Positions 5,984 to 64,000 of a DNA stretch of 64,000 nucleotides are shown piece after piece. Origin of the DNA: a virus; IMG/VR virus record IMGVR_UViG_3300028886_001504. One strand, given 5' to 3'. Made by a program: the position numbers and the translations under genes. Each line of letters starts with the position of its first letter. The stretch's first letter is position 1. Under the pieces are notes generated by a model, which ran no database searches, was not told the DNA's origin, and was given only the letters and a program-made list of their open reading frames with translations.

Positions 5984-7192
5984 ATGAATGACGTAACATG
6001 TAAAAAACTGTTTAACACCGAAGATGGTAAGCAAAAACGAATGGTTAGTATTTTAAAAATTTTTAGAGAAAACAAGAATGTGGAAGAATATGTAAAAAAC
6101 AGATATTCGGACTCCACATCAATTAAAGAAAGTGTTTATCGTATATTAAATAATATTGAAATTAGGCCACAGTGTAGGTGCGGAAAAGTATTAGAGTTTG
6201 ATTATCCTCTAAACACTTTCCATAAATATTGCTGTTCAAAATGCCAAAATTCAGACCCAGAAAAGATTAAAAAAGACAAAAAAACTAAACTGGATAAATA
6301 TGGGTCAGAAAATTACAACAATTTTGAAAAAATGAAAGAAACTTGCTATGAACGCTATGGAACAACATCTTTCACTAAGACGAATGAGTTTATAGAAAAA
6401 ACAAAAAAGACTAATTTTGAAAAGTATGGTGTAGATTGGTGATTACAGACTGATACTTGTAAAGATGAAACGAAAAAAGTAAAAAAAGAAAAGTACGGTG
6501 ACGAGAACTATAATAATCGAAATAAGGCGAAAAATACATCACTAGAAAGATATGGGGTTGAAAACACTATGCAATGGGAGGGTTCAAAGCAAAAAGAAAA
6601 AGAAACTTGCCTAAAAAGATACGGTGTTACTTCTTATGCTAAGACAGATGAGTTTAAGAAAAAACTAAAAGCCACTTATCTTAAAAAATGAGGGGTTGAC
6701 AATTGCACAAAAAGCGAAGAATGAAAAAACAAATGATATTCAAATGAAGAGTGAGTAAAAGAAAAAGTAGATAAAATCTACAACACTATGTTAAAAAACT
6801 GTAGTTTTTCACATTCTAAACCAGAGCAAGTTATCTTCAATTTCTTAAAAAATGAGTATCCTGATACAATTTATCAATACAAAGAAAAAAGATACCCCTT
6901 CAAATGTGATTTTTATATCCCTTCAAAAGATTTATTTATTGAATACAACGGCTATTGGGCACATGGCGGACACTTTTTTAACGAGAATGATGAAAAAGAT
7001 GTAGAAAAACTGAAATCATGAAAAGAGAAAAGTAAAAAATCTAAACAATACGAAAATGCAATAAAGACATGGACAATAAAAGACCCTTTGAAACTTAAAA
7101 CTTTTCAAGAAAACAATCTTAAACACATAATACTGTGATATGACAGTTTTAAAAATTTAGAGCAGATAAAAGAAATGGTGGACGAATTTTAG
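5984..7192 (+). CDS. homing-endonuclease-like protein: Zn finger, four ~35-aa repeats (ETC..RYG), C-terminal DUF559/Vsr-like nuclease; 7 in-frame TGA read as sense
   Basis: One frame from 5984 to TAG at 7190-7192 with TGA at 6440, 6689, 6722, 6734, 6752, 7019, 7136 and no TAA/TAG; C-terminal CDFYIPSKDLFIEYNGYWAH matches the DUF559 pattern. Confidence 0.6.
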
Positions 7193-43078: not shown

Positions 43079-43168
43079 TTTAACAATATCCTTACTGTTT
43101 TTTTAACCATCCGCTTTATGTCGGATTCTGTTTTTTGATATTAACAACTTTTAAGCATCTACAACTGT

Positions 43169-44047
43169 TCAGCCAGATGGAATACCGTCTGCACCTGTTG
43201 TCCAACCTGACATATTTGAACTTTTAACAAAAGTTCCTGTGTTTCCTACACCTTCTACCCATTCAGTTGTACTGGATGGAAAGTATCTGGTTGCGAGGCA
43301 TTTGATGTAATTTAAACTAGCGCAATCACAAAACATTTGATAATAACAAGAACTCAATATGGTTGTTGCGGGTAATTCAGGTGCTTTTGTTAATGATGTA
43401 CAACTTCTAAACATATATTGATAGCAAGCTTGTTCTAAAGTAGTTGCGGGTAATTCAGGTGCATTAACGAGGCTAGTGCAATTATAAAACATCCCATAAT
43501 AACAGCAATAAGTTAAAGTAGTGGCTGGCATAATTAATTTACTAGCATCTGTTAACCCAGTACAATAAATAAATAACCCATTAAAATTATACATATCTTG
43601 TAGTGTTGTAGCGGTAGCAAAACCAGCGCTACTAATCATACTCATTATGTTACCTTTTACTTTAAATTGACATGTTGTACCGTAAAAACTGTTAGACTGA
43701 CTTTCTCTATTGTCGCCATATGTTGTATTATCCCCCCTAAACTGAACAGTATCACCCGAAACAACGCTTATAGATACGCCTTCTGTATTAGCTGTTATAC
43801 TTGTCCATTCTCCGTTATTCTTCTTGTATTCAATTGTTTTTGGTGTACAATTTTGTGCTATTCATATAATATTACCATCGCCAGTTACTTCAAATGTAAG
43901 TGGTGTGCACAGAAGTTTTTCATAACCTGATTTGTTATAATCAACCCCTTTCCCTTCGGTATAAGAGACTCAAGGTTCTAAATAACTATTATCTCTTGCC
44001 TCCGTATAAGCAGATTGTGATTCAAAGTAATGCGTGTATTTTCCCAT
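43169..44047 (-). CDS. BspA-type leucine-rich-repeat protein; 2 in-frame TGA
   Basis: Track ORF 43169..43645 continues upstream in frame to ATG 44045-44047 across TGA at 43862-43864 and 43970-43972; repeats ..ATTL..CY.YMF..CTSL..APELP. Confidence 0.5.
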
Positions 44048-46759: not shown

Positions 46760-46807
46760 AGTATTATGTCTTTTAGTTCGTTAAATATAGTTATTTTTTT
46801 CGTAATC

Positions 46808-47386: not shown

Positions 47387-47387
47387 T

Positions 47388-48323: not shown

Positions 48324-48459
48324 TTTCTTCTTCTTTTTTAGGATAATATTCTATTCTGACTTCTTCATCAAAGTCAATATCATCTACATGGTCCTCAATC
48401 CATTTAAGAAACTCTCGTTTTGTTGAGAAATCTCTATATAATCCCACTTCTTTCATATT

Positions 48460-48497
48460 TTGCTAAATATACACTATTTTTCTTGATTTAGCAAATT
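48460..48497. terminator. inverted repeat ttgctaaat...atttagcaa
   Basis: 9-bp arms 3' of the rfbD-like gene. Confidence 0.4.
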
Positions 48498-48500
48498 ATA

Positions 48501-50486: not shown

Positions 50487-50487
50487 G

Positions 50488-50994: not shown

Positions 50995-51271
50995 TTTTTG
51001 CCTCCGTTTCTATACCTAAAAATTTCCAAACCATTTTGTTCACCATACCCCACATGTTCATTCTTTCTTTATCTACTTCAATTTCTGTAATAAAGTTGTC
51101 AACAAGTTCTTTAGAGAGATATTTTTCCCAATAACTCCTTGCACTTTCATCCGTTCTAATAAACGCGAAATCTTCTTTGTAGAACAAACAGTCGCTAACT
51201 TTGTACATTGTCTGTTTCAACGTTTCACTAAACCCATGCTGGGAATACACCAAATAGTATTTTTTAGCCAT
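50921..51271 (-). CDS. hypothetical protein
   Basis: 116 aa; TAATG overlap with ligA. Confidence 0.4.
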   Translation of the reverse strand: MAKKYYLVYSQHGFSETLKQTMYKVSDCLFYKEDFAFIRTDESARSYWEKYLSKELVDNFITEIEVDKERMNMWGMVNKMVWKFLGIETEAKNEKDEHSTGGARQQEEGNDRVGNL

Positions 51272-53295: not shown

Positions 53296-53297
53296 TG

Positions 53298-54062
53298 TTA
53301 ATATTTTACTTTAACATCACACAAAACGTTTTCGTTGGACACAACATTTTTATTATCATCCAACACAATTTTCAACACATATCCAACTGGATTATACCTT
53401 TCGTTTACATAAGAGGTGTTTACGATATATGTCCCATCATACTCTTTGAAATCCCTACATGAACTATGGATGTGTCCGTGTACATTGATTTTAGGGTGTT
53501 TCTCTCTAATACATTCATCAAGCACAACGTTACCAGCATCAACACCTTCACTCCATCCCTCACGGATTACACCAGTTTCATACATTCCTGGACTATCGTG
53601 CGACAACAGAATGTCAACACCCTCTGGGCATGCAGCGAACTTCTTGCGTAATGTATCGTTGGACACCATAAACGCCCAACTACCGAAAATCTTGCAATAA
53701 GGTGTACCAAAAATCTTTAATTTCTGTAAACCATTATCGGTAAGATACTCATAATCACAAGTCTCATTTTTAAGTACAGTTAATCTACTGTGTGTTTTTT
53801 TCCTCACAGCCTTCACCTCTTCTTTCGTGATTCTCTCACCAACAAAATCATGATTTCCGAAAATCATGACAACCTGGCTAAACTCATCCTTAAAACTTAG
53901 ACTATTAATCCAAGACGCAAACTCATTTTTAAACCAATCCAATTGGTATGTGTAGTATTGGTCATGCACAGGACACACATCACCACATATGAGAAGAAGT
54001 TCAATTGGCTCCTTAATATCTGGTAAATTACCATGTAAATCGCTTGTTACTAAAATATTCAT
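53298..54062 (-). CDS. metallophosphoesterase
   Basis: DLHGN, GDVCP, GNHD, GHIH. Confidence 0.7.
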   Translation of the reverse strand: MNILVTSDLHGNLPDIKEPIELLLICGDVCPVHDQYYTYQLDWFKNEFASWINSLSFKDEFSQVVMIFGNHDFVGERITKEEVKAVRKKTHSRLTVLKNETCDYEYLTDNGLQKLKIFGTPYCKIFGSWAFMVSNDTLRKKFAACPEGVDILLSHDSPGMYETGVIREGWSEGVDAGNVVLDECIREKHPKINVHGHIHSSCRDFKEYDGTYIVNTSYVNERYNPVGYVLKIVLDDNKNVVSNENVLCDVKVKY

Positions 54063-55033
54063 TGTTCTAATTTTAAAGGTTTTATAAACTTTGCAAGTTG
54101 GTCTTCGTGCCAGAACAAAAGGTCATTATCAACTATCTCCATCCCTTTCCACAATTTATAAACTTGCGGAAAATAGATAGATGAAACGGACTTTAATGTT
54201 TGCTCACCAGTAATAAGATTCGTTCTTATATATGCTGGTATTGAAGTACCATTTACATTAATCACTGGTAACTTCTTGATATCATAAAGTTCACACCTTA
54301 CATGATAACCAAACATATCTTGAATCACACCTTCAAGATTGTCAATATCTTCTTTGGTAACATTACCTTTTACCTCCCAAATAAACTCGTCTGTTTTGAA
54401 AGAGAAAGGTTCACATATACCTTTTTCTGACGCAATAATGGTATTATATTGATTGTGTATCGTCAAATACTTGAAGATGAAAGCAATAATATATTTCTCT
54501 ACTGTCGTGGTCCTCTTAGGATTAAGTTTACCAAAAATAACCTGACGTGTGTATTTGGATTTCTTAAAATAAAAAGACGTGTCGAACTTGTTAATGAAAT
54601 CCTCATAACTGTTATCAAACAAAACACCAGCAGTGTTTAATGCTTGAAAATTAGCTTTCTTCAAATCGAGAGAAAGATATTTGTGACCCTCATATACTTC
54701 TGTATAACTTGTGCGGTCAGGTATACTTAAAGCACGAACTTCCATATCAATAGCAAACGTGTTCATATCGCAACTGTTGAAATTCTTATATGCTGGGCTT
54801 TCAAGTACTGACATGATAATCTTATCCCTAACCTCTGCATAATGTTGTAGCCACAACTCAAAGTTACCATTATACCCTTCGTTGATTTCTTTATTCAATG
54901 CCTCCCACTCCTTCTCAGGCCAAAAATCTTTGTAGAGATTATGATAATACTCAAACATCTCCTCATTAAAAATGTTAATGGGAAGGTTAAAATCTTTTGA
55001 AAACCTTTGATTTAATCTTTCTTTTGCGGTCAT
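54059..55033 (-). CDS. hypothetical protein
   Basis: 324 aa ORF. Confidence 0.45.
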   Translation of the reverse strand: MTAKERLNQRFSKDFNLPINIFNEEMFEYYHNLYKDFWPEKEWEALNKEINEGYNGNFELWLQHYAEVRDKIIMSVLESPAYKNFNSCDMNTFAIDMEVRALSIPDRTSYTEVYEGHKYLSLDLKKANFQALNTAGVLFDNSYEDFINKFDTSFYFKKSKYTRQVIFGKLNPKRTTTVEKYIIAFIFKYLTIHNQYNTIIASEKGICEPFSFKTDEFIWEVKGNVTKEDIDNLEGVIQDMFGYHVRCELYDIKKLPVINVNGTSIPAYIRTNLITGEQTLKSVSSIYFPQVYKLWKGMEIVDNDLLFWHEDQLAKFIKPLKLEQ

Positions 55034-55037
55034 ATTA

Positions 55038-55223
55038 TCACTTGTTTATGAACAAAAAGAAAATAATAAGAAATATTATACCAAGTCCAACACTAATCCA
55101 AAGTGGTGACAATACCCACCACCAACTCCAGTCAATTACTTTAAGGAGTTTCAAGACAATAAACACAACAAGTAGAATAGTTGAAATACTAGTCCCACCA
55201 GAAACAGTCGTTTTTTCACTCAT
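55038..55223 (-). CDS. small membrane protein
   Basis: 61 aa hydrophobic. Confidence 0.35.
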   Translation of the reverse strand: MSEKTTVSGGTSISTILLVVFIVLKLLKVIDWSWWWVLSPLWISVGLGIIFLIIFFLFINK

Positions 55224-55686
55224 CTTTTTTAAGTTTTAATATAGTTTTTATTTTCTCAATATCTTCTATTGTAATTCCAGTTTCCCTATCTGTCTTAATA
55301 AAGTTATCGGCTTGTCCTAATAACATGTCACTATCATCATCTACAATCACATATTCATAGTGTGAATCTGCATAACATGGGCCAAACTTCGTACCCATAC
55401 CATGAAATGTGTCTCGTAACCACTTTTCAATCTCATTACCCCTACATATCCAATCTTGATAAAAATGTTCGGTATATCCAACGATTGGTAAAGTTAATCC
55501 ACACCCACGAAGAGATTTCTCAGTTCTTCCGTTATCATAACCCCACGAAGAGGATATTACTACCTCTACACCTTCCAACTCATTCAATAAAGCGACACAC
55601 GCTGGGTCTATGAACCCTTTACCTGTCTTTAAGAATTCATATCCAGCAAGTACACCATCAATATCCAAAAAAATAATACGCTTCAT
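55216..55686 (-). CDS. HAD-like phosphatase
   Basis: Motif I FLDIDGVL; -7 motif at 55695-55702. Confidence 0.55.
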   Translation of the reverse strand: MKRIIFLDIDGVLAGYEFLKTGKGFIDPACVALLNELEGVEVVISSSWGYDNGRTEKSLRGCGLTLPIVGYTEHFYQDWICRGNEIEKWLRDTFHGMGTKFGPCYADSHYEYVIVDDDSDMLLGQADNFIKTDRETGITIEDIEKIKTILKLKKDE

Positions 55687-55694
55687 ATCTGCAA

Positions 55695-55702
55695 CAAAGA
55701 TA
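55695..55702 (-). promoter_or_regulatory. Bacteroidota-type -7 element
   Basis: CAAAGATA 9 nt upstream of 55686. Confidence 0.45.
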
Positions 55703-55746
55703 TTGTTTTTTTAGAAAACAAACAAAAAAAACCGCAGACTTTTTGT

Positions 55747-56442
55747 CTACGGTTTATCTTTGGTTTCACCAGTGTTTCTATATACATTAAATTGCGGAAA
55801 CTGCATAAAGTCGTTTTCTTCGTCTTCTATTTTATCATCGGTTTGTTTTTCACCTAAAACAAGATGTTTATACGTCCTTTCGAGTCACTTCTTGAAATCA
55901 TCAACTGACATTTCATGTTTAGCATAGTTACATTTAGCACAACAAGGCACTACGTTGTCTAATGTGTAGCCTTTACTAGAATCCACTCTATCTATACCAT
56001 TGTGTGCTCATGGTTTTTGTGTTTTTTGCATATATTGTAATTCATACTCTCTAACTTCTGGTGATGCACCACAATAATAACAATCTTGTTCCATTATCTC
56101 TATAAACTCTTCAAATGTTAAATCAAAGTCTAGTCCTCTTTTTGACGCACCTGCTCTATAATCCTTTAATAGTCTATTTTTCAATCCAGAATGTACAATA
56201 CCCTGACTTTTCCTCAAAGCTGTTTCTGTTGATGTTTTCTTGTTTGTACACGAATGACATCCGAAACGGTTGACTAATGTTTTTTCTTTCGCATGAAATT
56301 CATTACCACAATCACATCTACATTCCCACAGTCAAACGTTTTTACCTTTTACTGTTGATTTTCTACAATAATTCTTAATGAGGATAAATCTATCATTAAT
56401 CCTATCCCCTTCCTTGTAATTTGTTTTGTGTTTTGGTCCCAT
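55747..56442 (-). CDS. HNH homing endonuclease; 3 in-frame TGA
   Basis: ATG 56440-56442 to TAG 55747-55749 in one frame with three TGA; Zn finger WECRCDCG; HNH core HNGIDRVDSSKGY...NVVPCCAKCNYAKH; track fragment 56008..56217 is in the same frame. Confidence 0.6.
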
Positions 56443-56482
56443 AATTACTCTTCCTTTTCTATTAGCACTCTTTTACATAAAA

Positions 56483-56515
56483 AGTCCTGAATTAGAAAAA
56501 ATCTAACCCAGGACT
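56483..56515. terminator. hairpin agtcctg...caggact
   Basis: 3' of the band-7 gene. Confidence 0.45.
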
Positions 56516-56537
56516 AACATTTTTTGAGTAAAAACAA

Positions 56538-57776
56538 CTATTTTTCGTTCATTTTATTAATAACGTCCATAGCCATATTGATGCCAACAAAATCCATAGC
56601 GTTGTTTCCACTACCATTACCAGTCATCATGACTTTTGGAACCCACGAAACGGTTGACTTTGACAAAGCTTCTGCAATACCAACCTTGGTTTTATACTCC
56701 CATTCAAGTTTCTCTTGCGGTGTAGCTCCCGCAGCGACTTTAAGTTTGTTAGCCTCTGCTTCTGCCTGACCTTCTGCAATAATCTTTTTCTTGTCAAATT
56801 CAGCCTTTTCTGCTGCAAGTCGCGCAACCTCACGTTCCTGTTCAGCCTTGGTAACCTCGGTAGCCTTGATACGCTCCTGCTCCCATTTTGCCTTTGCTGC
56901 TGCTGCCTTACCTTCTGCCTCGGCCTTAATAGCATCCTGCTGTGCAGCGAGTGCTTCTGCTTTCTTGGTCTGAATAGACATGTTGGCTTGCTGCTGGGTC
57001 TGAATCTGCTGGTTCACCTTTTCATCATAACTGATTTCCGAAATGGAAACCTGGTCAATTTCTACACCATATGCGGAAAAAGGAGACTTCTCAGAGCGAA
57101 CATAACCATTAGGTGCATCTTCATCTGGAACAAGTGAAGCAACTTTCACCTTCTTGGTTTCACCAGTAAATGAGTCAATTGTTTCAACCTCACGGCTGGT
57201 AGTTTTATAAATACCATTCGTCAACTGGTCAGTAATATAAGCAACCATATCGTTTTTCTTTTCCGCATAAGATTCGAATGCCGACATGAGTGGTCCAGAT
57301 GCATAAATAACTTTAGTGACGTTCTGTGATACAAGGTCATTCATCAGCCTATCCATACCAGTATATGCAGTCTGAATAAGTTTAAGGTGTTCCACATCAG
57401 TAGGCAACTTTACACGAAGTGAACCATAAATGTAACCAACGGAAGCATCGTTAAAAATAACTTTAATTGGCGTACCATGTGATTCACCCTGAATATCCTT
57501 ACCACCAAACCAGTATTGCTGGGTCTTGTAGTAAGAGGTTGTCCTACCAAACCACTGCCATTTGAAGCCAGGGTCTGTCCAGTAAACCATTTTACCAGAG
57601 AACGGGAACTGGTTTACGACAATCTGTTCGTTCTTGACATCCTCACCAAACTTTCCGATGCAGCAAAGGCAAAGGAAAACGAGAACACCAAAGATAATAG
57701 CGGTTACCTTCTTTTTAGAAAGGCGAAATCCCTTAGTAGTAGACTGGGACTGAGAATAGTTTTTGTTGTTGTACAT
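56538..57776 (-). CDS. SPFH/band 7 family membrane protein
   Basis: N-terminal TM, SPFH core, Ala/Glu/Lys coiled coil. Confidence 0.65.
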   Translation of the reverse strand: MYNNKNYSQSQSTTKGFRLSKKKVTAIIFGVLVFLCLCCIGKFGEDVKNEQIVVNQFPFSGKMVYWTDPGFKWQWFGRTTSYYKTQQYWFGGKDIQGESHGTPIKVIFNDASVGYIYGSLRVKLPTDVEHLKLIQTAYTGMDRLMNDLVSQNVTKVIYASGPLMSAFESYAEKKNDMVAYITDQLTNGIYKTTSREVETIDSFTGETKKVKVASLVPDEDAPNGYVRSEKSPFSAYGVEIDQVSISEISYDEKVNQQIQTQQQANMSIQTKKAEALAAQQDAIKAEAEGKAAAAKAKWEQERIKATEVTKAEQEREVARLAAEKAEFDKKKIIAEGQAEAEANKLKVAAGATPQEKLEWEYKTKVGIAEALSKSTVSWVPKVMMTGNGSGNNAMDFVGINMAMDVINKMNEK

Positions 57777-57804
57777 AAAATTTTAGTTTTTAAAGGTTAA
57801 TATA

Positions 57805-58086
57805 TTATTCGTTATTTTCTTCGTTTGTTTTCTTCTTTCTGGGCTTCTTAACCGTTTTTTCCACGGTTTCAGTTAATACCTGTGGTTCTGGTTCATTTTC
57901 ATGCTTTACCTCTTCCACGGGTTTCGCTTTCTTGAAGAGATAATAGAATGGGATGAACATCTGTGGAATTTGAACCTCCACACCTTCATCGGTGAACCGA
58001 ATTACTTCAAAGATTTGCAAGAAGCAAAAGATGTAGTAAATAAAAACGCTTAAAAGCAGTAGTACAATAAAAATTCTGTAAATCAT
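57805..58086 (-). CDS. small membrane protein
   Basis: 93 aa, N-terminal TM. Confidence 0.35.
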   Translation of the reverse strand: MIYRIFIVLLLLSVFIYYIFCFLQIFEVIRFTDEGVEVQIPQMFIPFYYLFKKAKPVEEVKHENEPEPQVLTETVEKTVKKPRKKKTNEENNE

Positions 58087-58367
58087 TTTTTTAAAGGTTT
58101 TAAAGTTGTTGTATCTTTTTTTGTTTTATTGTTTACGTTGACAATTACTTCAAAGGCTGGTAACTCCTTATTCTCGTTAATAACAGTGTTTAGACTGTCA
58201 ACTTTGACTTGTAATTCGGCTATTTGTTTGTCAAAATATACTTCATATTCTCTTTGCTTATCTTTCACCACTATTGCACTAACAATAATTGATATCAGCA
58301 AAGATGATAAAATTGTGATGAGGATAATAACCCAACTAACATTATTCTCTGTGGTATCCATTTTCAA
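58083..58367 (-). CDS. small membrane protein
   Basis: 94 aa, TM then coiled coil. Confidence 0.35.
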   Translation of the reverse strand: MKMDTTENNVSWVIILITILSSLLISIIVSAIVVKDKQREYEVYFDKQIAELQVKVDSLNTVINENKELPAFEVIVNVNNKTKKDTTTLKPLKK

Positions 58368-58743
58368 AGTCCTCTTCCATTAAAAGATTTCTGAATAACC
58401 CAATAAAAAATTGTTTTATTTTCTCCGCAAAGTTAACGATTTTTTCCTTACCTCCAAGTTTTTTTTCAACTTTTTTTGTTTTTTCTTGTGTTTTCACTTC
58501 TATCGTTGTAGGCTGCAACGTTGTTCCAACTGGAGCGCTTGATTTTTTTACCCAATGTCCTTCGACAATAGTATCAACCCTCTCCAATTCTTCATCGTCC
58601 CAAGTATCCCAACCATTTAAGTTCATTAAGTCAACGTAACGACTCAAAAACGGACTATTACCATTGTACTGGTAATAATAATACTTTCTTAATTTGCTGT
58701 CCATTATCGAAAATAATTTTGAACCAAAACAATAGGCGTACAT
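58342..58743 (-). CDS. hypothetical protein
   Basis: 133 aa ORF. Confidence 0.35.
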   Translation of the reverse strand: MYAYCFGSKLFSIMDSKLRKYYYYQYNGNSPFLSRYVDLMNLNGWDTWDDEELERVDTIVEGHWVKKSSAPVGTTLQPTTIEVKTQEKTKKVEKKLGGKEKIVNFAEKIKQFFIGLFRNLLMEEDFENGYHRE

Positions 58744-59819
58744 CTGTCACCAGAACCACTGGTTAAATCCATCAACGATGCTAAAAGATTAACATACCTT
58801 CTTGGTGTAGTCCCTTGACTTACCATATTCCCCTTAAGGCTCATGCCATTTTTTAAAGAAATTTCGCGTTCAATAGCTTTTTGAAGTTCCTCACCTGAAA
58901 GGTCTTTATATTGGTCATCAGCAAGCGCCTTAACCTTGACTTCGTTTGGTGTACTGTCAAGAAGTTCTTCATCGGTGTAACCAGGACTTGAAACAGGGTC
59001 TGCCATTTCCCAGATGCCAGCATCCAAATCCTTGTAACTGCCGTCACCATATGCCATAACCACTAAGTCTTTCCCACATACACCTTTAATAAGGTATTTA
59101 ACATCAACACATACGTCCTTTGCTATTTTTCTGGTAGGGAACAGTTTTAGTTTTTCTTCCGTGGCTTTATTTGTACCAAGCAAACCAAAATCTGGATTCT
59201 TGTCTTTACAAATATCCGCTAACGTGATAAACGTTTTCCCATCAAGTCTCCCAAGCGGAGGATTATATTGATTACTCCAATTTTTATAATCATGAAGCCC
59301 ACAATAAATCGCACATTTATGAAAATACCAAGTATCTTCATTGTTGAGAATTTCGCACTCACATCCTTCATCCTTACAAATTTGGCTATAATACTCTTTG
59401 ATGTTAACTCCAGTAAACGGATTAACGTCACAGGGATTTCCAACTTCATCGTACTTAGGCATTACAATAGTGACTTTCTTTGTCGCTCTAGCAACACCTT
59501 TAAGAATCATACTGAACCTATTACGAGAATAGATAGGATTGATTAACGTGATTTCTTCTGAGTTACCAGAAAGCCTCTTAACATCCTCCGCAATTTCATC
59601 AACGGTTACATATAAGTTTGCAGCCCTTGCAATCACCGATTCAGTAATACCAATAACATCCTTATCCGACAAGTCATCACCGTTATTCGTTACAGATAAA
59701 ATACTGTCTGCAACAATCTTTGCCAAATTATCTCCTGAACGTATAATCGGGCATTTTACACCCCTTGCTGTTAAAGTTTTCTCTGCCATATTATTTTGAC
59801 TCCTTTTTCTTTTTAACAA
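58704..59819 (-). CDS. hypothetical protein
   Basis: 371 aa ORF. Confidence 0.45.
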   Translation of the reverse strand: MLKRKRSQNNMAEKTLTARGVKCPIIRSGDNLAKIVADSILSVTNNGDDLSDKDVIGITESVIARAANLYVTVDEIAEDVKRLSGNSEEITLINPIYSRNRFSMILKGVARATKKVTIVMPKYDEVGNPCDVNPFTGVNIKEYYSQICKDEGCECEILNNEDTWYFHKCAIYCGLHDYKNWSNQYNPPLGRLDGKTFITLADICKDKNPDFGLLGTNKATEEKLKLFPTRKIAKDVCVDVKYLIKGVCGKDLVVMAYGDGSYKDLDAGIWEMADPVSSPGYTDEELLDSTPNEVKVKALADDQYKDLSGEELQKAIEREISLKNGMSLKGNMVSQGTTPRRYVNLLASLMDLTSGSGDRCTPIVLVQNYFR

Positions 59820-60900
59820 CCTTCTTACCTTTTACAGTCTTTACAGTCTTTTTCTCTCCAACATTGATTTCTTCATCAATTTTGAGTGTTTCTTTATCAA
59901 TACCAAGAGTGTCAACAAACTTTTCGAGCGTCAAATCACACGTCTCGTCAATCCAATCGGTTACATAATAAAGTTTGTTGGAACCAGCAATCACACCAAA
60001 CAAAATGGGGTCTTTCTTTTTGGCAATCTCCTTTTCCGTTGGCTTGTATGATTCTCCCTTCGGGTCGTAGTGCAAAATGACGTAATTGTCAAATACCCTC
60101 AAATCATTTGCTTTCTTGATTGTATCAATAACCTCCTGTGGTAAAGGTCTTGAGAAGTTCTTAATATATGTGAGTGCAAGCCCCTTCTCGGTTTTAAGTG
60201 CAAAATCAACAACTTGCTTCTCGGTTACAACATAATAATAACCCTCTGAATAAAGAAGTGATTCATATTTGTTGGCAATCATTTCCTTAAGCAAGGACTC
60301 AACCAACGCTGTTTGGCCTACATTATTTGCATTGTGAATTGCAATAAGATATTTACTGATACGATTTACATAAGATTGAGCAGACTCCTGACTGGTAAGT
60401 TTTACTTTAGTAAAGAACTCAACCGCATCAAACTCATATTTTTCCTTCTTTGTGAGAAACTTATCAAAAAGTTTCTTAAATAACGAAACCTTCTTCTTGT
60501 CCCCAGTTTCAACTCCACTGGAGGTAAAGACAAACGTATTGTTGTTGGTAAATCCATGCATACCGCCGTACCCACTGAGAACGTTGTTCAACTTATTGCT
60601 CTTGATTAAACAAGTAAGTTCATCAAGCGATGCAGCAGCAATCTTATCAAAATCTACCTTTCCGTCGACCACATAAGCGTCTGGTGTTCCATAAACAACA
60701 AACGGGGTTGGTTGTGTTGTATATATATTTGTGGTACTTGTACCAGCATCGGTGGTGCTTGGAAGGTTGATGCTTTGTCGCATAACGATTTTCGCTTGTT
60801 CTTCTTTAACCCCTCCAATGTTCTTCCATTTAGGGAGATTTTGGTCAATAACAACACCATTTTCAAAAATGGCAAGTCTCTTTTTGTCTGTTGTAAGCAT
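59791..60900 (-). CDS. hypothetical protein with Lys-rich C-terminus
   Basis: 369 aa; -7 motif 60925-60932. Confidence 0.45.
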   Translation of the reverse strand: MLTTDKKRLAIFENGVVIDQNLPKWKNIGGVKEEQAKIVMRQSINLPSTTDAGTSTTNIYTTQPTPFVVYGTPDAYVVDGKVDFDKIAAASLDELTCLIKSNKLNNVLSGYGGMHGFTNNNTFVFTSSGVETGDKKKVSLFKKLFDKFLTKKEKYEFDAVEFFTKVKLTSQESAQSYVNRISKYLIAIHNANNVGQTALVESLLKEMIANKYESLLYSEGYYYVVTEKQVVDFALKTEKGLALTYIKNFSRPLPQEVIDTIKKANDLRVFDNYVILHYDPKGESYKPTEKEIAKKKDPILFGVIAGSNKLYYVTDWIDETCDLTLEKFVDTLGIDKETLKIDEEINVGEKKTVKTVKGKKVVKKKKESK

Positions 60901-60924
60901 ATCTTTATTTTTTGTTCAGTGTTG

Positions 60925-60932
60925 CAAAGATA
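60925..60932 (-). promoter_or_regulatory. Bacteroidota-type -7 element (with CAAA -33-like ~22 nt further)
   Basis: CAAAGATA upstream of 60900. Confidence 0.45.
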
Positions 60933-60991
60933 TACACTTTTTTTTATAAAACAAAAAAAGTTGCAGATTTTTTTCTACAACTTTTAATTTG

Positions 60992-61076
60992 CGGAGGGTA
61001 CTGGATTCGAACCAGTGGACCCATACGGGTCGGCAGTTTAGCAAACTGCTGGTTTAAGCCACTCACCCAACCCTCC
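60992..61076 (-). tRNA. tRNA-Ser (anticodon GCU), type II with long variable arm
   Basis: Manual fold: acceptor GGAGGGT/ACCCTCC, anticodon stem GCAGT/ACTGC, loop TTGCTAA, T-loop GGTTCGAATCC. Confidence 0.65.
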
Positions 61077-61112
61077 AAAAGCACTGCATTTAAGGGAATG
61101 CAGGAAACCAAG

Positions 61113-61184
61113 AGTCAACGACTGGATTCGAACCAGCATAAAAAGGTTTTGCAGACCTTCCCCTAACCATTCGGGCACGTTGAC
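61113..61184 (-). tRNA. tRNA-Cys (anticodon GCA)
   Basis: Manual fold: acceptor GTCAACG/CGTTGAC, anticodon stem AAGGT/ACCTT, loop CTGCAAA. Confidence 0.5.
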
Positions 61185-61289
61185 GATGAAAACTCTTACA
61201 TTCCACTATCTCGCCCTATGCGTCTAGGGTCACACACCAGTTCGGGATGATTGATTTTTTTGCACACCAGTGTGAAGCATAGTCCGCGA

Positions 61290-61991
61290 TTACTTCTCCA
61301 GTTTATTGGGACTGGCGTTTCCTTTTGAGTTTGTTTTCCTTTTCGTTCTTGTCGATTTTCCAGTATTCAATGCTGAATAATTTACTGTCATAGCATGGTG
61401 ATTCGGGCATAAAACTTGAAGATTTTCTTCTTTACTATTGTTTGCATCACCATCAATGTGGTGTATTTCAACTATTGGTCTTCCACTCTTAGGATTTACT
61501 CAGTTACATCCACAAATTTCACAAGAACAATTTGTTTTTTCTAACATGTACCTTCTAACAAATTGTGATAGTTGTCCTACCCCTCTATTTCCACTACACT
61601 CTCCACTTTTTCATCTTAGAATATACTGTTTATATTCATACTCTCTTTGACAATGTGAACCACAAAATTTTGTGCTTTTTCTCAAATCCGTTATCTCTCC
61701 TCCACAATTCAAACACACTCTTTCATGTTTTTGTTTCCTCACCCTCTTCTTGTTATTATAAGATGCAGAACAGGAATGTGAGCAAAATAATTTCTGGTCC
61801 TTTTCAAGTTTTTTACCACAAACAATGCAATACTTAGTATTATTTAGTTTAATTGTTTCCAGTCAATCTTTTCAATCAACACCGTTTTCTTTTAAATAAA
61901 GTTTTACTTTTTCTCTGTTAGTGTAATTTGCTTTTCCATAAAGTTTTCTAGATACGTCATTTAACGACTTGCAGTCTTTCAATATTTCCAT
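61290..61991 (-). CDS. HNH homing endonuclease; 4 in-frame TGA
   Basis: ATG 61989-61991 to TAA 61290-61292 in one frame with four TGA and no TGG; Zn fingers CIVCGKKL...CSHSC; HNH core VEIHHIDGD...LQVLCPNHH. Confidence 0.6.
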
Positions 61992-62002
61992 ACTAGTATA
62001 AT

Positions 62003-62018
62003 GTTTATAAATAAATAG
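62003..62018 (-). promoter_or_regulatory. GACTATTTATTTATAA promoter-like motif (minus orientation)
   Basis: 12 nt upstream of the HNH ATG. Confidence 0.4.
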
Positions 62019-62065
62019 TCTCAAAAAGCCAAAATGTGTATTCGAAATTAAAGTTTTTAAATTAG

Positions 62066-62137
62066 AGCCTCCTGTCGGAGTTGAACCAACATTTCAAGAT
62101 TACAAATCATGCGTAATAACCGTTATACGAAGGAGGC
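62066..62137 (-). tRNA. tRNA-Thr (anticodon UGU), one U-U mismatch in the anticodon stem
   Basis: Manual fold: acceptor GCCTCCT/AGGAGGC, loop TTTGTAA, T-loop GGTTCAACTCC. Confidence 0.45.
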
Positions 62138-62247
62138 AATACTACGGAAAACTTTATTTTTTGTCCGCTATTTTTGGTGCAGATATTAATAAATACTTGC
62201 TGTTTGTTTTCCTACAGTAAACTTATGAAAAAAGAACTAATACTTTG

Positions 62248-62255
62248 CAAAGATA
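62248..62255 (-). promoter_or_regulatory. Bacteroidota-type -7 element upstream of tRNA cluster
   Basis: CAAAGATA. Confidence 0.4.
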
Positions 62256-62290
62256 TACACTTTTTTCTAAATAATCAAGTTTTTTTTGAA

Positions 62291-63520
62291 TTATTCTTCA
62301 AATGCTGCCAAACCGTCTGCTTCTTTTGATGCTTCTTGTCTTAGTATAACACCAAGTTCGTCAATGTTGATTGTTGCAGTATATTGTACTTTCTCCTTAT
62401 TGATTGTTCTTTCAAGTAAGAACAAAGGCTCGTTATTAACCCAGAAGAAAGAATCTTTTTGTTTTGTTCTGATATCAAGACCAGTTGCACAAAGATATGC
62501 TACATTGGAAAGTTTGAAAATTTTCTGTTTCATATTCTCTTCTTTCTTAAAATCATAGAACATCTTGAACTGTGCCAATTTATCAGGGTCATTCTGCAAT
62601 TCAACATCTTGTAATTTTGCAGCATATGAGTCAGAGACTTTGTAAAGCATTCTACCTAAAGAATCTGGAATTCTATCAATATCACCATCTTCTGTTACAC
62701 CATAGAAGATAGCTTCTTGGTCATCGACCCTTGAAAGCATGTTTCTGATGGAATATCCTGGTAATTCAACTTGTGTGGAAGGGTCTTCTGCATTTGTTCT
62801 GTATTTAATGTTTCTTGGTACATATTCACCAGTTTCATCGTCACCACTCCACTCGGTATCCGTTGCAATACCAAAATTTGCTGGTTCACCAATATACTTA
62901 TAGGTAGGACCATTTCTTTTAGGAGTATTGTGCCACACTTCATTACCGTCAGCATCTAAATCTTTATATTGAATACCCAATTCATCGTAATATTTGGGGT
63001 CAATCTTCGCAGTCATATCGTTATATGCTTGCGTGTTTCTTTCCTGTGCTTTTGCGTAGCCAGTTTGTCCTTGCCAATGAAGCCTATATTTGGTAAGTTT
63101 GATTACATATTTGTAGATTGCTTTGTTAAAAGCACGTTGTCCTTTATATAAACGGCCAGTTGGATTATCCCATTCGGTGTTTTTTGATTTGTCCATAAAA
63201 TCAACATATCTTTGTCGTGCTCTATCTGTCACATCTTCTGATACCATGGCATAGTCCATGTCATTCTCTACACCAAAATCACCAGCCATTGCACTCATTT
63301 TGTTATAGAGGTCTTCATTTGGATATTGACCAGGAATAGTATAAAGTTGAATATATCCTAATCTGACAAACTGTCCCTCTTGAATTTGTACTGTTGACAA
63401 GAAGTTTACCAAATCATTTGCCATAATCTGTTTTGATTCATTCAGTACTTGCCCCCATCCAGTTCTTGGGCTATTCATTCTCTCAATAAGAGATTTCATT
63501 TCGTTTAACTGTTGCTTCAT
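62291..63520 (-). CDS. hypothetical protein
   Basis: 409 aa ORF. Confidence 0.5.
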   Translation of the reverse strand: MKQQLNEMKSLIERMNSPRTGWGQVLNESKQIMANDLVNFLSTVQIQEGQFVRLGYIQLYTIPGQYPNEDLYNKMSAMAGDFGVENDMDYAMVSEDVTDRARQRYVDFMDKSKNTEWDNPTGRLYKGQRAFNKAIYKYVIKLTKYRLHWQGQTGYAKAQERNTQAYNDMTAKIDPKYYDELGIQYKDLDADGNEVWHNTPKRNGPTYKYIGEPANFGIATDTEWSGDDETGEYVPRNIKYRTNAEDPSTQVELPGYSIRNMLSRVDDQEAIFYGVTEDGDIDRIPDSLGRMLYKVSDSYAAKLQDVELQNDPDKLAQFKMFYDFKKEENMKQKIFKLSNVAYLCATGLDIRTKQKDSFFWVNNEPLFLLERTINKEKVQYTATINIDELGVILRQEASKEADGLAAFEE

Positions 63521-63551
63521 AATAGTATTTGTTTAAACAATAAATAGTTGA

Positions 63552-63800
63552 TTACTTTGTAAATACATCTTCGCCATATAAATCTTTAGTGATATCAACA
63601 CCGTCTGGGCCTTTTACGTGTATTACGTTATTCTCCATAATATAATATTGGTACATAAAGAAATCCAGTTTATCTTCTGGCTTGTAATCGGGAAAGTTCT
63701 CTTTAATCTCTTCTTCTGTGGCTCCAACTGCCATAAATTCACAATCTTCTGATGGGAGGATTCTGATGAGTTTCTTGTTTCCGTTTTCTGCTATAATCAT
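63552..63800 (-). CDS. hypothetical protein
   Basis: 82 aa ORF. Confidence 0.4.
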   Translation of the reverse strand: MIIAENGNKKLIRILPSEDCEFMAVGATEEEIKENFPDYKPEDKLDFFMYQYYIMENNVIHVKGPDGVDITKDLYGEDVFTK

Positions 63801-63852
63801 AGTTATTTGTGTTTAATTTTGTTCAAAAATACCAACAATTTACGAGAAAAAC

Positions 63853-63863
63853 AACTATTTATA
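63853..63863 (+). promoter_or_regulatory. AACTATTTATA promoter-like motif
   Basis: 10 nt upstream of the + ATG 63873. Confidence 0.4.
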
Positions 63864-63872
63864 TAAAAATAT

Positions 63873-64000
63873 ATGAAAATGAAACTGTTAGAGACATACA
63901 ATTTTAGCGTTACTCAGTTCCCTAAAAAGGATGGGACGATGGGGACGTTTGCTTATATTGACCCTAAAAAATCCACTGACGATACTATGCGCGTTAAAGA
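63873..64000 (+). CDS. hypothetical protein (5' part; continues past window end)
   Basis: MKMKLLETYNFSV... open to the edge. Confidence 0.35.
   Translation, partial: MKMKLLETYNFSVTQFPKKDGTMGTFAYIDPKKSTDDTMRVK

What the first reader, a model, noticed from the sequence alone, without database searches (positions are those of the whole stretch)
60992..62255. tRNA cluster (Ser-GCU, Cys-GCA, Thr-UGU) interrupted by a fully TGA-recoded HNH endonuclease; none of the tRNAs reads UGA
This is the classic phage arrangement of an HNH homing endonuclease within a tRNA cluster, but the HNH uses TGA for all four Trp. The three tRNAs were folded by hand and none has a UCA anticodon. The tRNA-Cys anticodon GCA is one substitution (G34 to U) away from a UGA reader. 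The suppressor required for the recoded genes must lie elsewhere in the genome, come from a partner element or the host, or be generated by modification.
Basis: partly seen in the sequence, partly recalled or inferred. Interest (0 to 1): 0.65.

Follow-up and report, generated by a model that had tools for sequence, protein, structure and literature searches.

The report
TGA-recoded homing endonuclease in phage tRNA array
A selfish DNA-cutting gene sitting among the tRNA genes of a 384-kb gut phage spells all four of its tryptophans with the stop codon TGA; this is a real example of a known phenomenon, phages that partly rewrite the genetic code, and the tRNA that reads TGA is still not found.

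Summary
ARAGORN and Rfam find exactly three tRNAs in the window: Ser-GCU, Cys-GCA and Thr-UGU. A 233-codon HNH gene (61290-61991, minus strand) has four in-frame TGA codons and no TGG. All four TGAs fall on conserved Trp columns where homologues use TGG.

The trio is the tail of a ~16.7-kb array on a 384-kb phage contig, with 23 ARAGORN-called tRNAs, six more Rfam tRNA matches and a tmRNA. The HNH and its own tRNA-Thr form a ~0.8-kb cassette that replaces the resident tRNA-Thr of a 93%-identical relative. A 99.3%-identical copy, also carrying TGA, sits in a different phage.

TGA=Trp affects only a minority of genes. Three homing endonucleases have 14 TGA against 5 TGG, and LRR proteins and a few others are also affected. 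The 76 core genes have 269 TGG, no in-frame TGA and 11 TGA stops.

No UCA tRNA exists in the 92.7 kb I could see (24% of the genome). The array instead holds a conserved CUA tRNA and a tRNA-Trp(CCA).

Borges et al. described this kind of phage: partial TGA recoding, a homing endonuclease preferentially recoded, and a suppressor detected in only 35% of genomes. This is a new member of a known kind with an unresolved decoder.

The parts
60991..61076 (-). tRNA-Ser(GCU), the last gene of the tRNA array
   Evidence: ARAGORN; Rfam tRNA at 54.9 bits.
61112..61184 (-). tRNA-Cys(GCA)
   Evidence: ARAGORN; Rfam tRNA at 59.6 bits. The same anticodon is found in relatives L024, L019 and L115.
61290..61991 (-). 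HNH homing endonuclease of 233 codons plus a TAA stop. In-frame TGA (Trp) at codons 40, 43, 127 and 164 (window 61872-61874, 61863-61865, 61611-61613, 61500-61502). No TGG.
   Evidence: Translation. phrog_1271 HNH endonuclease at E=1.8e-20. Family members match Pfam HNH_3 and HNH. The TGAs fall on conserved Trp columns. Homologues use TGG.
62065..62137 (-). tRNA-Thr(UGU) that travels with the HNH
   Evidence: ARAGORN and Rfam. It is 86% identical to the tRNA-Thr of HNH-bearing relatives L115 and L116, but only 58% identical to that of the HNH-less relative L024.
61334..62135 (-). Mobile segment (tRNA-Thr, 73-nt spacer and most of the HNH ORF). It replaces the 73-nt resident tRNA-Thr of relative L024. 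The last ~14 HNH codons are encoded by resident sequence.
   Evidence: L024 is about 92-93% identical on both sides, with breakpoints at window 62136 and 61333. L019 is 99.3% identical over window 62038-61272, but its flanking tRNA matches are only about 77-78% identical.
62197..62212 (-). Array-specific motif GGAAAACAAACAGCAA, about 75 nt upstream of tRNA-Thr. Function unknown (promoter-like or processing signal).
   Evidence: A regex scan finds 11 copies on the array strand in the 30-kb array region and one in the 64-kb window.
62245..62259 (-). Motif TGTATATCTTTGCAA upstream of the Thr-HNH-Cys-Ser unit. An identical copy lies at 60922-60936, upstream of the next gene. It contains TAnnTTTG, the Bacteroidota -7 consensus as I recall it.
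   Evidence: the DNA search finds 4 matches with up to 2 mismatches against 0.41 expected. The promoter assignment is inference.
55747..56442 (-). Second HNH/endonuclease VII-like gene, 231 codons, with 3 TGA and 1 TGG
   Evidence: Translation; phrog_1035 and phrog_3322 at E=2.7e-20 and 7e-18.
5984..7192 (+). DUF7487 homing endonuclease, 402 codons, with 7 TGA and 4 TGG. It lies on the strand opposite its neighbours and is absent from close relatives.
   Evidence: Pfam DUF7487 at E=1.2e-24. phrog_3339 homing endonuclease. The gene tables of L108, L109 and L112 lack it between IMPDH and the 182-aa gene.
43151..44047 (-). LRR (BspA-like repeat) protein, 298 codons, with 3 TGA and 3 TGG. This is a recoded gene that is not a homing endonuclease.
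   Evidence: Translation. A 902-codon paralogue with 8 TGA and 8 TGG lies just outside the window, at about L117 434-3127.

Best explanation
The window is part of a 384,030-bp huge-phage contig, ENA ERZ27256887 k141_2852081. The three tRNAs are the downstream end of a ~16.7-kb array of tRNA genes and a tmRNA that is peppered with free-standing homing endonucleases (HNH and GIY-YIG).

The HNH at 61290-61991 belongs to a family that lives almost only in phage tRNA arrays. The sampled loci of its closest relatives lie directly 3' of tRNA-Thr(UGU). Here the HNH and its own tRNA-Thr form a ~0.8-kb mobile cassette that has replaced the resident tRNA-Thr. I infer that this happened by homing with co-conversion.

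The phage and its close relatives read TGA as tryptophan in a minority of genes. These are above all the homing endonucleases, plus LRR proteins that I take to be fibre-like and a few others. Replication, repair and metabolism genes use only TGG, and some of them still end in TGA.

This is therefore a partially TGA-recoded ('code 4') phage of the kind described by Borges et al. In that model, in-frame TGAs keep a gene untranslated until a phage-driven code switch occurs.

Shown here:
- the tRNA identities;
- TGA at conserved Trp columns;
- the insertion polymorphism;
- the skew of TGA towards homing endonucleases;
- the absence of a UCA tRNA from the whole array.

Inferred:
- temporal gating of endonuclease expression;
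- the source of the decoder.

I think the decoder most likely lies in the unseen 76% of the genome, as a UCA suppressor or a code-change module near late genes. The second most likely source is the array's own tRNA-Trp(CCA) acting under weakened RF2 competition.
For: tRNAs.

Intact HNH with four TGA codons on conserved Trp columns. Homologues use TGG at these positions.

The same substitution occurs in a gene that is not a homing endonuclease. Two Trp codons of a 532-codon protein are TGA here and TGG in relative L024.

Other genes with several in-frame TGAs:
- a 902-codon LRR gene with 8 TGA;
- a 253-codon gene with 3 TGA in this genome and in relatives L108, L109 and L111;
- a SprT-like gene with 3 TGA and no TGG in L118.

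Skew: three homing endonucleases have 14 TGA and 5 TGG. All other window genes have 3 TGA and 272 TGG (Fisher p=2.5e-17). The 76 core genes have no in-frame TGA and 11 TGA stops. Six of those stops are ATGA overlaps with the next gene.

Mobility: the HNH-less relative L024 has the same Thr-Cys-Ser trio, with breakpoints at window 62136 and 61333. The type of tRNA-Thr co-varies with HNH presence. A copy in L019 is 99.3% identical while its flanking tRNA matches are about 77-78% identical, and it also carries TGA.

Family habitat: 78 of 80 loci have tRNAs within 4 kb.

Contig identity and array extent.

Literature (bioRxiv 10.1101/2021.08.26.457843): TGA-recoded phages keep standard code in many early genes. 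An intron homing endonuclease in Agate phages preferentially uses TGA for Trp. Only 35% of code-4 genomes have a detectable TGA suppressor.
Against: No tRNA able to read UGA by standard rules was found in the window, in the full array, or in the 92.7 kb visible in total.

The only suppressor-like tRNA has anticodon CUA, which reads UAG, yet I found no convincing in-frame TAG gene in that region.

Eleven core genes end in TGA, so an efficient suppressor would extend them by a mean of 7.5 codons and at most 33.

The timing of expression and the endonuclease's cleavage activity and target are untested.

The direction of the Thr/HNH replacement (gain here versus loss in L024) is inferred from parsimony, not shown.
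Confidence: 0.8

Rival explanations
1. The decoder is a dedicated tRNA(UCA) suppressor, possibly with RF1 and TrpRS, encoded outside the main tRNA array in the 291 kb of the contig that I could not read. It might sit next to late or lysis genes, as in Jade phages. The genome may be dual-recoded, which would explain the CUA tRNA.
For: Only 24% of the contig was visible. Jade phages carry a code-change operon (suppressor, TrpRS, RF1) upstream of the lysis cassette, away from other tRNAs. Another huge-phage contig shows the mirror image: an HNH with in-frame TAG (L048) and a tRNA(UCA) in the same array (L087). Carrying one suppressor while the other stop codon appears in-frame nearby therefore does occur.
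Against: Phage tRNAs are usually clustered, and the whole ~16.7-kb array lacks a UCA tRNA. The array of the syntenic relative L115 has 27 tRNAs and also lacks one, although that relative looks standard-coded in the region seen.
Confidence: 0.45
2. There is no UCA tRNA at all. UGA is read by the phage-encoded tRNA-Trp(CCA) through a C34-A mismatch, as in the Hirsh suppressor. This would be made efficient by high tRNA dosage from the array, by interference with host RF2, or by both. The array's tmRNA would rescue stalled ribosomes.
For: A tRNA-Trp(CCA) lies in the array and is 100% conserved in six related contigs that also carry in-frame TGA genes. Its D-stem has U11-A24, the pair created by the Hirsh G24A mutation in E. 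coli tRNA-Trp; the sequence is and the Hirsh comparison is from my own knowledge. A tmRNA is in the array. Most code-4 phages have no detectable UCA suppressor.
Against: A Watson-Crick 11-24 pair is the norm in tRNAs (from my own knowledge). The tRNA-Trp of L115, which looks standard-coded in the region seen, also has U11-A24. A 902-codon gene with 8 TGAs needs near-cognate decoding at very high efficiency. No RF2 inhibitor was identified.
Confidence: 0.25
3. The decoder comes from outside the phage: a host tRNA, a co-infecting recoded phage, or another mobile element. Without such a partner the TGA-bearing endonucleases stay silent.
For: The TGA-bearing HNH is 99.3% identical in two different phages, so such phages meet in the same cells. 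The 2026 jumbo-phage survey raises this possibility for suppressor-less recoded phages (PMC13037316).
Against: Genes that are not homing endonucleases, and that are presumably needed by the phage, also contain TGA. These are the LRR proteins with 3 and 8 TGAs and the 532-aa and 253-aa proteins. A phage is unlikely to depend on a chance partner for them. The pattern is conserved across several related contigs.
Confidence: 0.08
4. The HNH is a decaying pseudogene, and the TGAs are ordinary nonsense mutations.
For: Under the standard code the ORF is broken into five pieces. Homing endonucleases do degenerate after fixation (from my own knowledge).
Against: All four stop codons are TGA, and all four lie exactly on Trp columns. 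There is no frameshift, TAA or TAG, and all catalytic and zinc-binding columns are intact. A 99.3%-identical copy with the same TGAs sits in a diverged phage. Seven other genes show the same TGG-to-TGA pattern.
Confidence: 0.03
5. The adjacent tRNA-Cys(GCA), or a G34U derivative of it, reads UGA, so the recoded positions are Cys.
For: GCA is one substitution from UCA. Cys insertion at UGA is known in Euplotes (from my own knowledge).
Against: tRNA-Cys is GCA here and in relatives L024, L019 and L115. The recoded columns are conserved Trp, never Cys, in homologues.
Confidence: 0.02
6. The host itself uses genetic code 4 (for example a mollicute), so no phage suppressor is needed.
For: TGA=Trp is the native code of Mycoplasma and Spiroplasma (introduction).
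Against: The 76 core genes use 269 TGG and no in-frame TGA. Eleven of them end in TGA, six in ATGA start/stop overlaps. An AT-rich code-4 lineage would favour TGA for Trp throughout. A 384-kb phage with a TAnnTTTG-like promoter motif fits a Bacteroidota-type host, though that assignment is inference.
Confidence: 0.03

Closest known systems
TGA-recoded gut phages (Agate, Jade and Sapphire clades; Borges et al., bioRxiv 10.1101/2021.08.26.457843, read)
   Same: TGA is used for Trp in only part of the genome, while replication genes stay standard-coded. Close relatives differ by TGG-to-TGA changes. In Agate phages a homing endonuclease is among the genes that preferentially use TGA, which the authors propose delays its production to late infection. 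A cognate suppressor is detectable in only 35% of such genomes.
   Different: The genome here is 384 kb, against roughly 130-210 kb. The recoded endonucleases are free-standing HNH and DUF7487 genes, one of them inside a tRNA array, not an intron-encoded endonuclease. The array carries a CUA suppressor-like tRNA, not a UCA one. TGA is still used as a stop in 11 of the 76 core genes. I did not test clade membership, for example with a terminase phylogeny.
T4 SegB and the endonucleases of the T5 tRNA region (homing endonucleases inside phage tRNA clusters; from my own knowledge, not read here)
   Same: A free-standing endonuclease lies between tRNA genes. Its inheritance drags neighbouring tRNA genes with it by co-conversion, which is what the paired tRNA-Thr/HNH replacement here looks like.
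   Different: SegB is a GIY-YIG enzyme in a standard-coded phage. Nothing comparable to stop-codon recoding is involved. Cleavage and preferential inheritance were shown experimentally for SegB and are only inferred here.
Lak and other huge gut phages with large tRNA arrays, tmRNA and a CUA suppressor (TAG recoding)
   Same: Huge genome, a large tRNA array, a tmRNA, insert-containing tRNAs and a CUA tRNA.
   Different: Those phages have in-frame TAG. In the 92.7 kb seen here the in-frame stop codon is TGA and no gene convincingly needs TAG read-through.
Hirsh UGA suppressor (E. coli tRNA-Trp CCA with G24A; from my own knowledge)
   Same: A CCA-anticodon tRNA-Trp with a U11-A24 pair is the only Trp tRNA in the array of a phage that needs UGA read as Trp.
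   Different: U11-A24 also occurs in the tRNA-Trp of relative L115, which looks standard-coded in the region seen, so it is not diagnostic. No functional evidence exists.

Membership tests
HNH (beta-beta-alpha-Me) endonuclease | An HNH catalytic motif with conserved His, Asn and His residues and Cys zinc ligands | tested here: met
   The invariant columns H177, H178, D180, N185, N190, C195 and H199 and the CxxC pairs are all present. phrog_1271 HNH endonuclease matches at E=1.8e-20. Of 20 family members, 17 match Pfam HNH_3 and 6 match HNH. The profile hits the HNH domain of McrA, PDB 6ghc. The window protein alone falls below the Pfam HNH threshold.
Free-standing homing endonuclease | Presence/absence polymorphism at the same site in closely related genomes | tested here: met
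   L024 is about 92-93% identical in both flanks and has Thr-Cys-Ser without the HNH. The breakpoints are at window 62136 and 61333.
Free-standing homing endonuclease | Evidence of recent horizontal movement: the element is much more similar than its flanks | tested here: met
   L019 is 99.3% identical over 767 bp of the HNH, but its flanking tRNA-Cys and tRNA-Ser matches are only about 77-78% identical.
Free-standing homing endonuclease | Site-specific cleavage of the endonuclease-less allele | not testable with these tools
   This needs purified protein and the L024-type tRNA-Thr region as substrate.
tRNA-array-resident phage endonuclease (SegB-like behaviour) | Located between tRNA genes on the same strand, as a family-wide habit | tested here: met
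   78 of 80 IMG/VR loci have tRNAs within 4 kb, nearly all on the HNH strand. The sampled loci of its closest homologues lie directly 3' of tRNA-Thr(UGU).
tRNA-array-resident phage endonuclease (SegB-like behaviour) | Co-inheritance (co-conversion) of the neighbouring tRNA gene | tested here: inconclusive
   The type of tRNA-Thr co-varies with HNH presence: 86% identity to HNH-bearing L115 and L116 against 58% to HNH-less L024. This is consistent with co-conversion but does not demonstrate it.
TGA-to-Trp alternatively coded phage (code 4, Borges type) | In-frame TGA at conserved Trp positions of otherwise intact genes | tested here: met
   HNH: four of four. 532-aa protein: TGA here, TGG in L024. 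In total 31 in-frame TGAs in 8 genes.
TGA-to-Trp alternatively coded phage (code 4, Borges type) | Recoding confined to a subset of genes, with early and replication genes standard-compatible | tested here: met
   The 76 core genes have no in-frame TGA and 269 TGG. The recoded genes are endonucleases, LRR proteins and a few others.
TGA-to-Trp alternatively coded phage (code 4, Borges type) | A phage-encoded suppressor tRNA with anticodon UCA | tested here: not met
   None was found in the window or in the 92.7 kb visible, including the whole array. Two caveats apply. 76% of the contig is unseen, and the literature finds a suppressor in only 35% of such genomes, so this feature is typical rather than strictly defining.
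TGA-to-Trp alternatively coded phage (code 4, Borges type) | Code-change accessories (RF1, TrpRS) | not tested
   No such Pfam family appears in the precomputed annotations of L105, L110 and L117. The rest of the genome is unseen, and I ran no dedicated search.
TGA-to-Trp alternatively coded phage (code 4, Borges type) | A host that uses the standard code | tested here: inconclusive
   TGA stops in ATGA overlaps and the dominance of TGG argue for it. No host was identified.

The most novel reading that the evidence does not exclude
This clade of ~380-kb phages reads UGA as Trp with no UCA tRNA at all. It would do so with its own tRNA-Trp(CCA) plus interference with host RF2. The homing endonucleases of phage tRNA arrays would be systematically TGA-loaded, so that they are translated only in code-switched cells. 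An endonuclease copied into a standard-code rival would then be silent there. The conserved CUA tRNA with its unusual C33 loop would belong to the same switch.
Probability: 0.15. Interest if true: 0.75.

Novelty: new member of a known kind. Interest (0 to 1): 0.45.

Why it matters
This locus shows a recoded selfish gene caught in motion. The same TGA-bearing HNH is 99.3% identical in two different phages, and it is absent from a 93%-identical sister of this one. Homing endonucleases therefore circulate within a pool of code-switching phages and carry the alternative code with them.

The TGA skew towards endonucleases is extreme: 14 of 19 Trp codons, against 3 of 275 in all other window genes. 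It recurs in an unrelated phage clade. This extends the single Agate-phage example in the literature to free-standing endonucleases of tRNA arrays.

The locus also sharpens an open problem, namely how TGA is decoded in the majority of code-4 phages that have no detectable suppressor. Here an apparently complete tRNA array can be inspected. It contains CUA and Trp-CCA tRNAs but no UCA tRNA. The named contig is a good test case for small-RNA sequencing and proteomics.

Tried and rejected
1. Megablast of window 45000-64000 against the INPHARED phage collection found no match.
2. An exact 35-mer from the HNH and a pattern for the CUA tRNA (with the anticodon left free) found nothing in IMG/VR. This clade does not appear to be in that collection.
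3. The search for related loci with the 409-aa neighbour protein found nothing in IMG/VR.
4. The tRNA-Cys idea is rejected. The anticodon is GCA in all relatives and the recoded columns are Trp.
5. The pseudogene reading is rejected.
6. I searched for in-frame TAG genes to explain the CUA tRNA. In the window and flanks I found only tandem genes that happen to share a frame, plus noise.
7. I looked for a sequence context that separates sense TGAs from stop TGAs. Both are A-rich at +4 and nothing distinguishes them.
8. I compared the phage tRNA-Trp across relatives to find a recoding-specific change. It is identical in all six close relatives. U11-A24 also occurs in L115, which looks standard-coded in the region seen, so the comparison is uninformative.
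9. Walking further along the contig was blocked. Look-ups are restricted to window proteins or proteins returned by searches. One extra 10-kb step succeeded through a 40-aa ORF.
10. The tRNA-like genes with inserts in the anticodon arm (L105 1131-1305, 2921-3019, 4146-4260, 4266-4389 and 6365-6498) were inspected by eye for a hidden UCA. No plausible UUCA loop was found.
Full report
**1. The observation**

ARAGORN finds three tRNA genes in the 64-kb window, all on the minus strand.
- tRNA-Ser(GCU), 60991-61076
- tRNA-Cys(GCA), 61112-61184
- tRNA-Thr(UGU), 62065-62137

Rfam's tRNA model finds the same three at 55-60 bits and nothing else above threshold. Relaxed ARAGORN runs (lower score threshold, introns allowed, mitochondrial mode) and an Rfam scan at E<=10 add no credible tRNA and no UCA anticodon.

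Between Thr and Cys, one minus-strand frame runs from ATG at 61991 to TAA at 61290. It is open for 233 codons except for four TGAs, at codons 40, 43, 127 and 164, and it contains no TGG.

The protein is an HNH endonuclease.
- PHROG phrog_1271 matches at E=1.8e-20.
- Family members match Pfam HNH_3 and HNH.
- The family profile matches the HNH domain of McrA.

A database search returned more than 200 homologues of about 220 aa. In an alignment of 20 of them, every TGA falls on a Trp column. W127 is invariant, W40 and W43 are nearly so, and the fourth lies in the CGCNW motif. The homologues I read at the DNA level spell all four as TGG.

**2. Where the window comes from, and what the 'cluster' really is**

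Exact-protein look-ups place the window on ENA contig ERZ27256887:k141_2852081, which is 384,030 bp long. With the allowed flanks, plus one extra step through a 40-aa ORF, I could read contig positions 74,356-167,014. That is 92.7 kb, or 24% of the contig.

The three tRNAs are the last genes of an array that starts about 14 kb beyond the right edge of the window. ARAGORN calls the following, in order:
- a tRNA with anticodon CUA, then Pro, Ala, Leu, Trp(CCA), Leu, Arg, Phe, Lys, Arg, Phe, Arg, Met, Asp;
- Tyr, Val, Ile, Gly, Gly, His;
- then three protein genes, followed by Thr, the HNH, Cys and Ser.

Rfam adds a tmRNA. It also adds five tRNA matches above threshold that carry 27- to 101-nt inserts in the anticodon arm, and one uninterrupted match just below threshold. 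Upstream of the CUA tRNA, 6.5 kb contains no further tRNA above threshold.

The array is interspersed with more endonucleases: three further HNH genes and three GIY-YIG genes.

None of these RNAs has a UCA anticodon. I inspected the insert-bearing ones by eye, and none offers a plausible UUCA loop.

**3. The HNH is a mobile cassette that carries its own tRNA-Thr**

A relative from a metagenome (L024, JAEEGL010887084.1) is 93% identical in protein and about 92-93% identical in DNA on both sides. It has the same Thr-Cys-Ser trio but no HNH.

The homology breaks precisely at window 62136 and 61333. In the window, tRNA-Thr, a 73-nt spacer and most of the HNH ORF occupy 802 bp where L024 has only a 73-nt tRNA-Thr.

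The two tRNA-Thr(UGU) genes are only 58% identical. By contrast, the window's tRNA-Thr is 86% identical to that of L115 and L116. L115 is syntenic and carries a truncated HNH in the same place; L116 is a short contig with the same Thr-HNH arrangement. The last ~14 codons of the window HNH are encoded by sequence that L024 also has.

A JGI contig (L019) carries a 99.3%-identical HNH over 767 bp, with TGA at the codons I checked. Its flanking tRNA-Cys and tRNA-Ser matches are only about 77-78% identical and its downstream gene is different.

Of 80 IMG/VR loci that encode a relative, 78 have tRNA genes within 4 kb, nearly all on the HNH strand. The sampled loci of its closest homologues sit directly after tRNA-Thr(UGU).

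This is the behaviour of a homing endonuclease specialised for tRNA arrays. I infer that it moves by cleaving the HNH-less allele, followed by repair that co-converts the adjacent tRNA gene. That mechanism is not shown here.

**4. TGA is a Trp codon in this phage, but only in some genes**

Eight genes in the visible region contain 31 in-frame TGAs in total.

| Gene | TGA | TGG |
|---|---|---|
| this HNH | 4 | 0 |
| second HNH, 55747-56442 | 3 | 1 |
| DUF7487 homing endonuclease, 5984-7192 | 7 | 4 |
| a GIY-YIG gene | 1 | 3 |
| LRR protein, 298 codons | 3 | 3 |
| LRR protein, 902 codons | 8 | 8 |
| 532-codon protein | 2 | 7 |
| 253-codon protein | 3 | 1 |

In the 532-codon protein, the two TGAs align with TGG in L024 at conserved Trp positions. 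Recoding is therefore not limited to mobile genes.

In contrast, the 76 other genes of the window have 269 TGG and no in-frame TGA. Eleven of them end in TGA, and six of those stops are ATGA overlaps with the next start codon.

The three window endonucleases hold 14 TGA and 5 TGG, against 3 TGA and 272 TGG for all other window genes (Fisher p=2.5e-17).

If TGA were efficiently suppressed, the eleven TGA-terminated genes would gain a mean of 7.5 codons and at most 33. Sense and stop TGAs have no distinguishing sequence context.

Close relatives show in-frame TGA in some of the same genes and in others, including a SprT-like protein and another HNH.

A pseudogene reading is not tenable. A code-4 host is unlikely given the TGA stops and the dominance of TGG.

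**5. The decoder**

The array has no UCA tRNA. It has a tRNA with anticodon CUA and an unusual loop, CCCUAAA, with C at position 33. Its anticodon stem-loop is identical in six related contigs; the sequences differ at a single base near the 3' end. It also has a tRNA-Trp(CCA) that is identical in those relatives.

I found no convincing in-frame TAG gene in the 92.7 kb. The visible suppressor and the visible recoded codon therefore do not match.

The mirror-image case exists on another huge-phage contig, where an HNH with in-frame TAG (L048) shares an array with a tRNA(UCA) (L087). In a third clade, HNH genes are TGA-rich, their neighbours use only TGG, and the array has a CUA tRNA. Dual recoding, with the two suppressors in different places, is thus a reasonable expectation.

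My ranking of the possible decoders is as follows.
- A UCA suppressor or code-change module in the unseen 76% of the genome: about 0.45.
- Decoding by the phage tRNA-Trp(CCA) with RF2 interference: about 0.25. Its U11-A24 pair mimics the Hirsh mutation but is also present in L115, which looks standard-coded in the region seen.
- An external supplier (host, co-infecting phage or other element): about 0.08.

The 902-codon LRR gene with eight TGAs rules out mere leaky read-through as sufficient.

**6. Comparison with what is known**

Borges et al. (bioRxiv 2021, read) described TGA-recoded gut phages with these properties.
- Recoding is concentrated in late genes, while replication genes stay standard-coded.
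- Relatives at more than 90% ANI can differ in genetic code.
- Only 35% of code-4 genomes have a detectable TGA suppressor.
- In Agate phages, a group I intron homing endonuclease preferentially uses TGA for Trp. The authors propose that this withholds the endonuclease until late infection.

A 2026 jumbo-phage survey likewise reports recoded jumbo phages without suppressors and with intron-containing tRNAs.

Endonucleases inside phage tRNA clusters are classic (T4 SegB, the T5 tRNA region; from my own knowledge).

The present locus combines these known elements. It is a new member of a known kind.

The additions are specific rather than categorical.
- The recoded endonuclease is free-standing.
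- It is caught as an insertion polymorphism together with a co-travelling tRNA.
- It is nearly identical in two different phages.
- An apparently complete tRNA array can be shown to lack the cognate suppressor while carrying a non-cognate one.

**7. Verdict**

The tRNA-Cys hint is unsupported. 'None of the tRNAs reads UGA' is now extended from three tRNAs to the whole array.

Interest is moderate, at 0.45. The phenomenon is published, but the unresolved decoder and the extreme TGA skew in the endonucleases make the named contig a good test case.

Noticed in passing
L117 6603-6675 (same contig, about 23 kb beyond the right edge of the window): A tRNA with anticodon CUA (amber suppressor-like), an unusual CCCUAAA loop with C33 instead of U33, and a 3-bp D-stem. 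Its anticodon stem-loop is identical in six related contigs; the sequences differ at one base near the 3' end. I found no convincing in-frame TAG gene in the 92.7 kb visible. A UCA tRNA in another phage (L087 3613-3686) has the analogous CCUCAAA loop.
   Followed up: partly
L105 1131-1305, 2921-3019, 4146-4260, 4266-4389, 6365-6498 (array, beyond the window edge): Rfam tRNA matches at 33-54 bits whose acceptor, D and T arms are canonical but whose anticodon arm carries 27- to 101-nt inserts. Default ARAGORN misses them. Three of the inserts start with a 5- to 7-bp A/T hairpin and contain the GGAAAC..ACAGCAA motif. Weak YrlA (Y RNA-like) hits overlap or adjoin them. Their nature is unresolved: intron-bearing tRNAs, Y-RNA-like RNAs or recombination scars.
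   Followed up: partly
window 62197-62212 (minus strand), plus 10 more copies in L117/L105: The motif GGAAA(A)C-NNN-ACAGCAA occurs 11 times on the array strand within the 30-kb array region and only once in the 64-kb window. It often lies about 70-80 nt upstream of a tRNA, or inside the insert-bearing tRNA-like genes. It could be a promoter or a processing signal.
   Followed up: partly
L105 2459-2866: A tmRNA gene (Rfam, 100 bits) lies inside the tRNA array. Relatives have one with the tag DNNNIAIAA (L118, L120).
   Followed up: no
window 10210-11079, 15146-16348, 17675-18955, 18955-20067, 21379-22833 (all minus strand): An RNA/tRNA repair and maturation toolkit: a Thg1-like protein, RlaP, a CCA-adding/poly(A) polymerase-family enzyme, an HD plus P-loop kinase (Pnkp-like), and a weak RNA ligase match. 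Thg1-like enzymes can repair tRNA 5' ends, which may relate to the odd tRNA-like genes.
   Followed up: partly
window 12549-13757 (+): A TnpB/IS605 OrfB-type gene (Cas12f1-like TNB and OrfB_IS605 domains) on the strand opposite nearly all its neighbours.
   Followed up: no
window 5984-7192 (+): A DUF7487 homing endonuclease with 7 TGA and 4 TGG, inserted between IMPDH and a 182-aa gene. It is absent at that site in relatives L108, L109 and L112, where IMPDH is also 15 aa shorter. One TGA falls where the protein's own internal repeats usually have Tyr (xKYGxxN), so Trp at that position is inferred only.
   Followed up: partly
window 17675, 37959, 14391, 54059, 58083, 3275 (gene ends): Six core genes end in TGA as part of an ATGA overlap with the next start codon. 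TGA therefore still works as a genuine, translationally coupled stop in the same genome that uses it for Trp.
   Followed up: partly
L033-L052, L075, L076, L093 (IMG/VR contigs of sample 3300045988 and others, 72-186 kb): A different phage clade shows the same pattern. Two HNH families in the tRNA array have 2-3 TGAs at Trp positions and 0-1 TGG, while neighbouring genes use TGG only (for example 16 TGG and 0 TGA in a 582-aa protein). Many of these arrays hold a CUA tRNA.
   Followed up: partly
L048 and L087 (IMGVR_UViG_3300028832_000119): The mirror-image mismatch. An HNH homologue carries in-frame TAG while the same array carries a tRNA(UCA). This suggests that some huge phages recode both TAG and TGA.
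   Followed up: no
L019 825-914 and 1023-1117: In the second phage that carries the 99.3%-identical HNH, tRNA-Cys and tRNA-Ser are unusually long (90 and 95 nt) because of extra segments relative to the window's copies.
   Followed up: no
window 60922-60936 and 62245-62259 (minus strand): Two identical copies of TGTATATCTTTGCAA flank the Thr-HNH-Cys-Ser unit. Two further copies with 2 mismatches lie elsewhere in the window. The motif contains TAnnTTTG, which I recall as the Bacteroidota -7 promoter consensus. This is a possible host clue only.
   Followed up: partly
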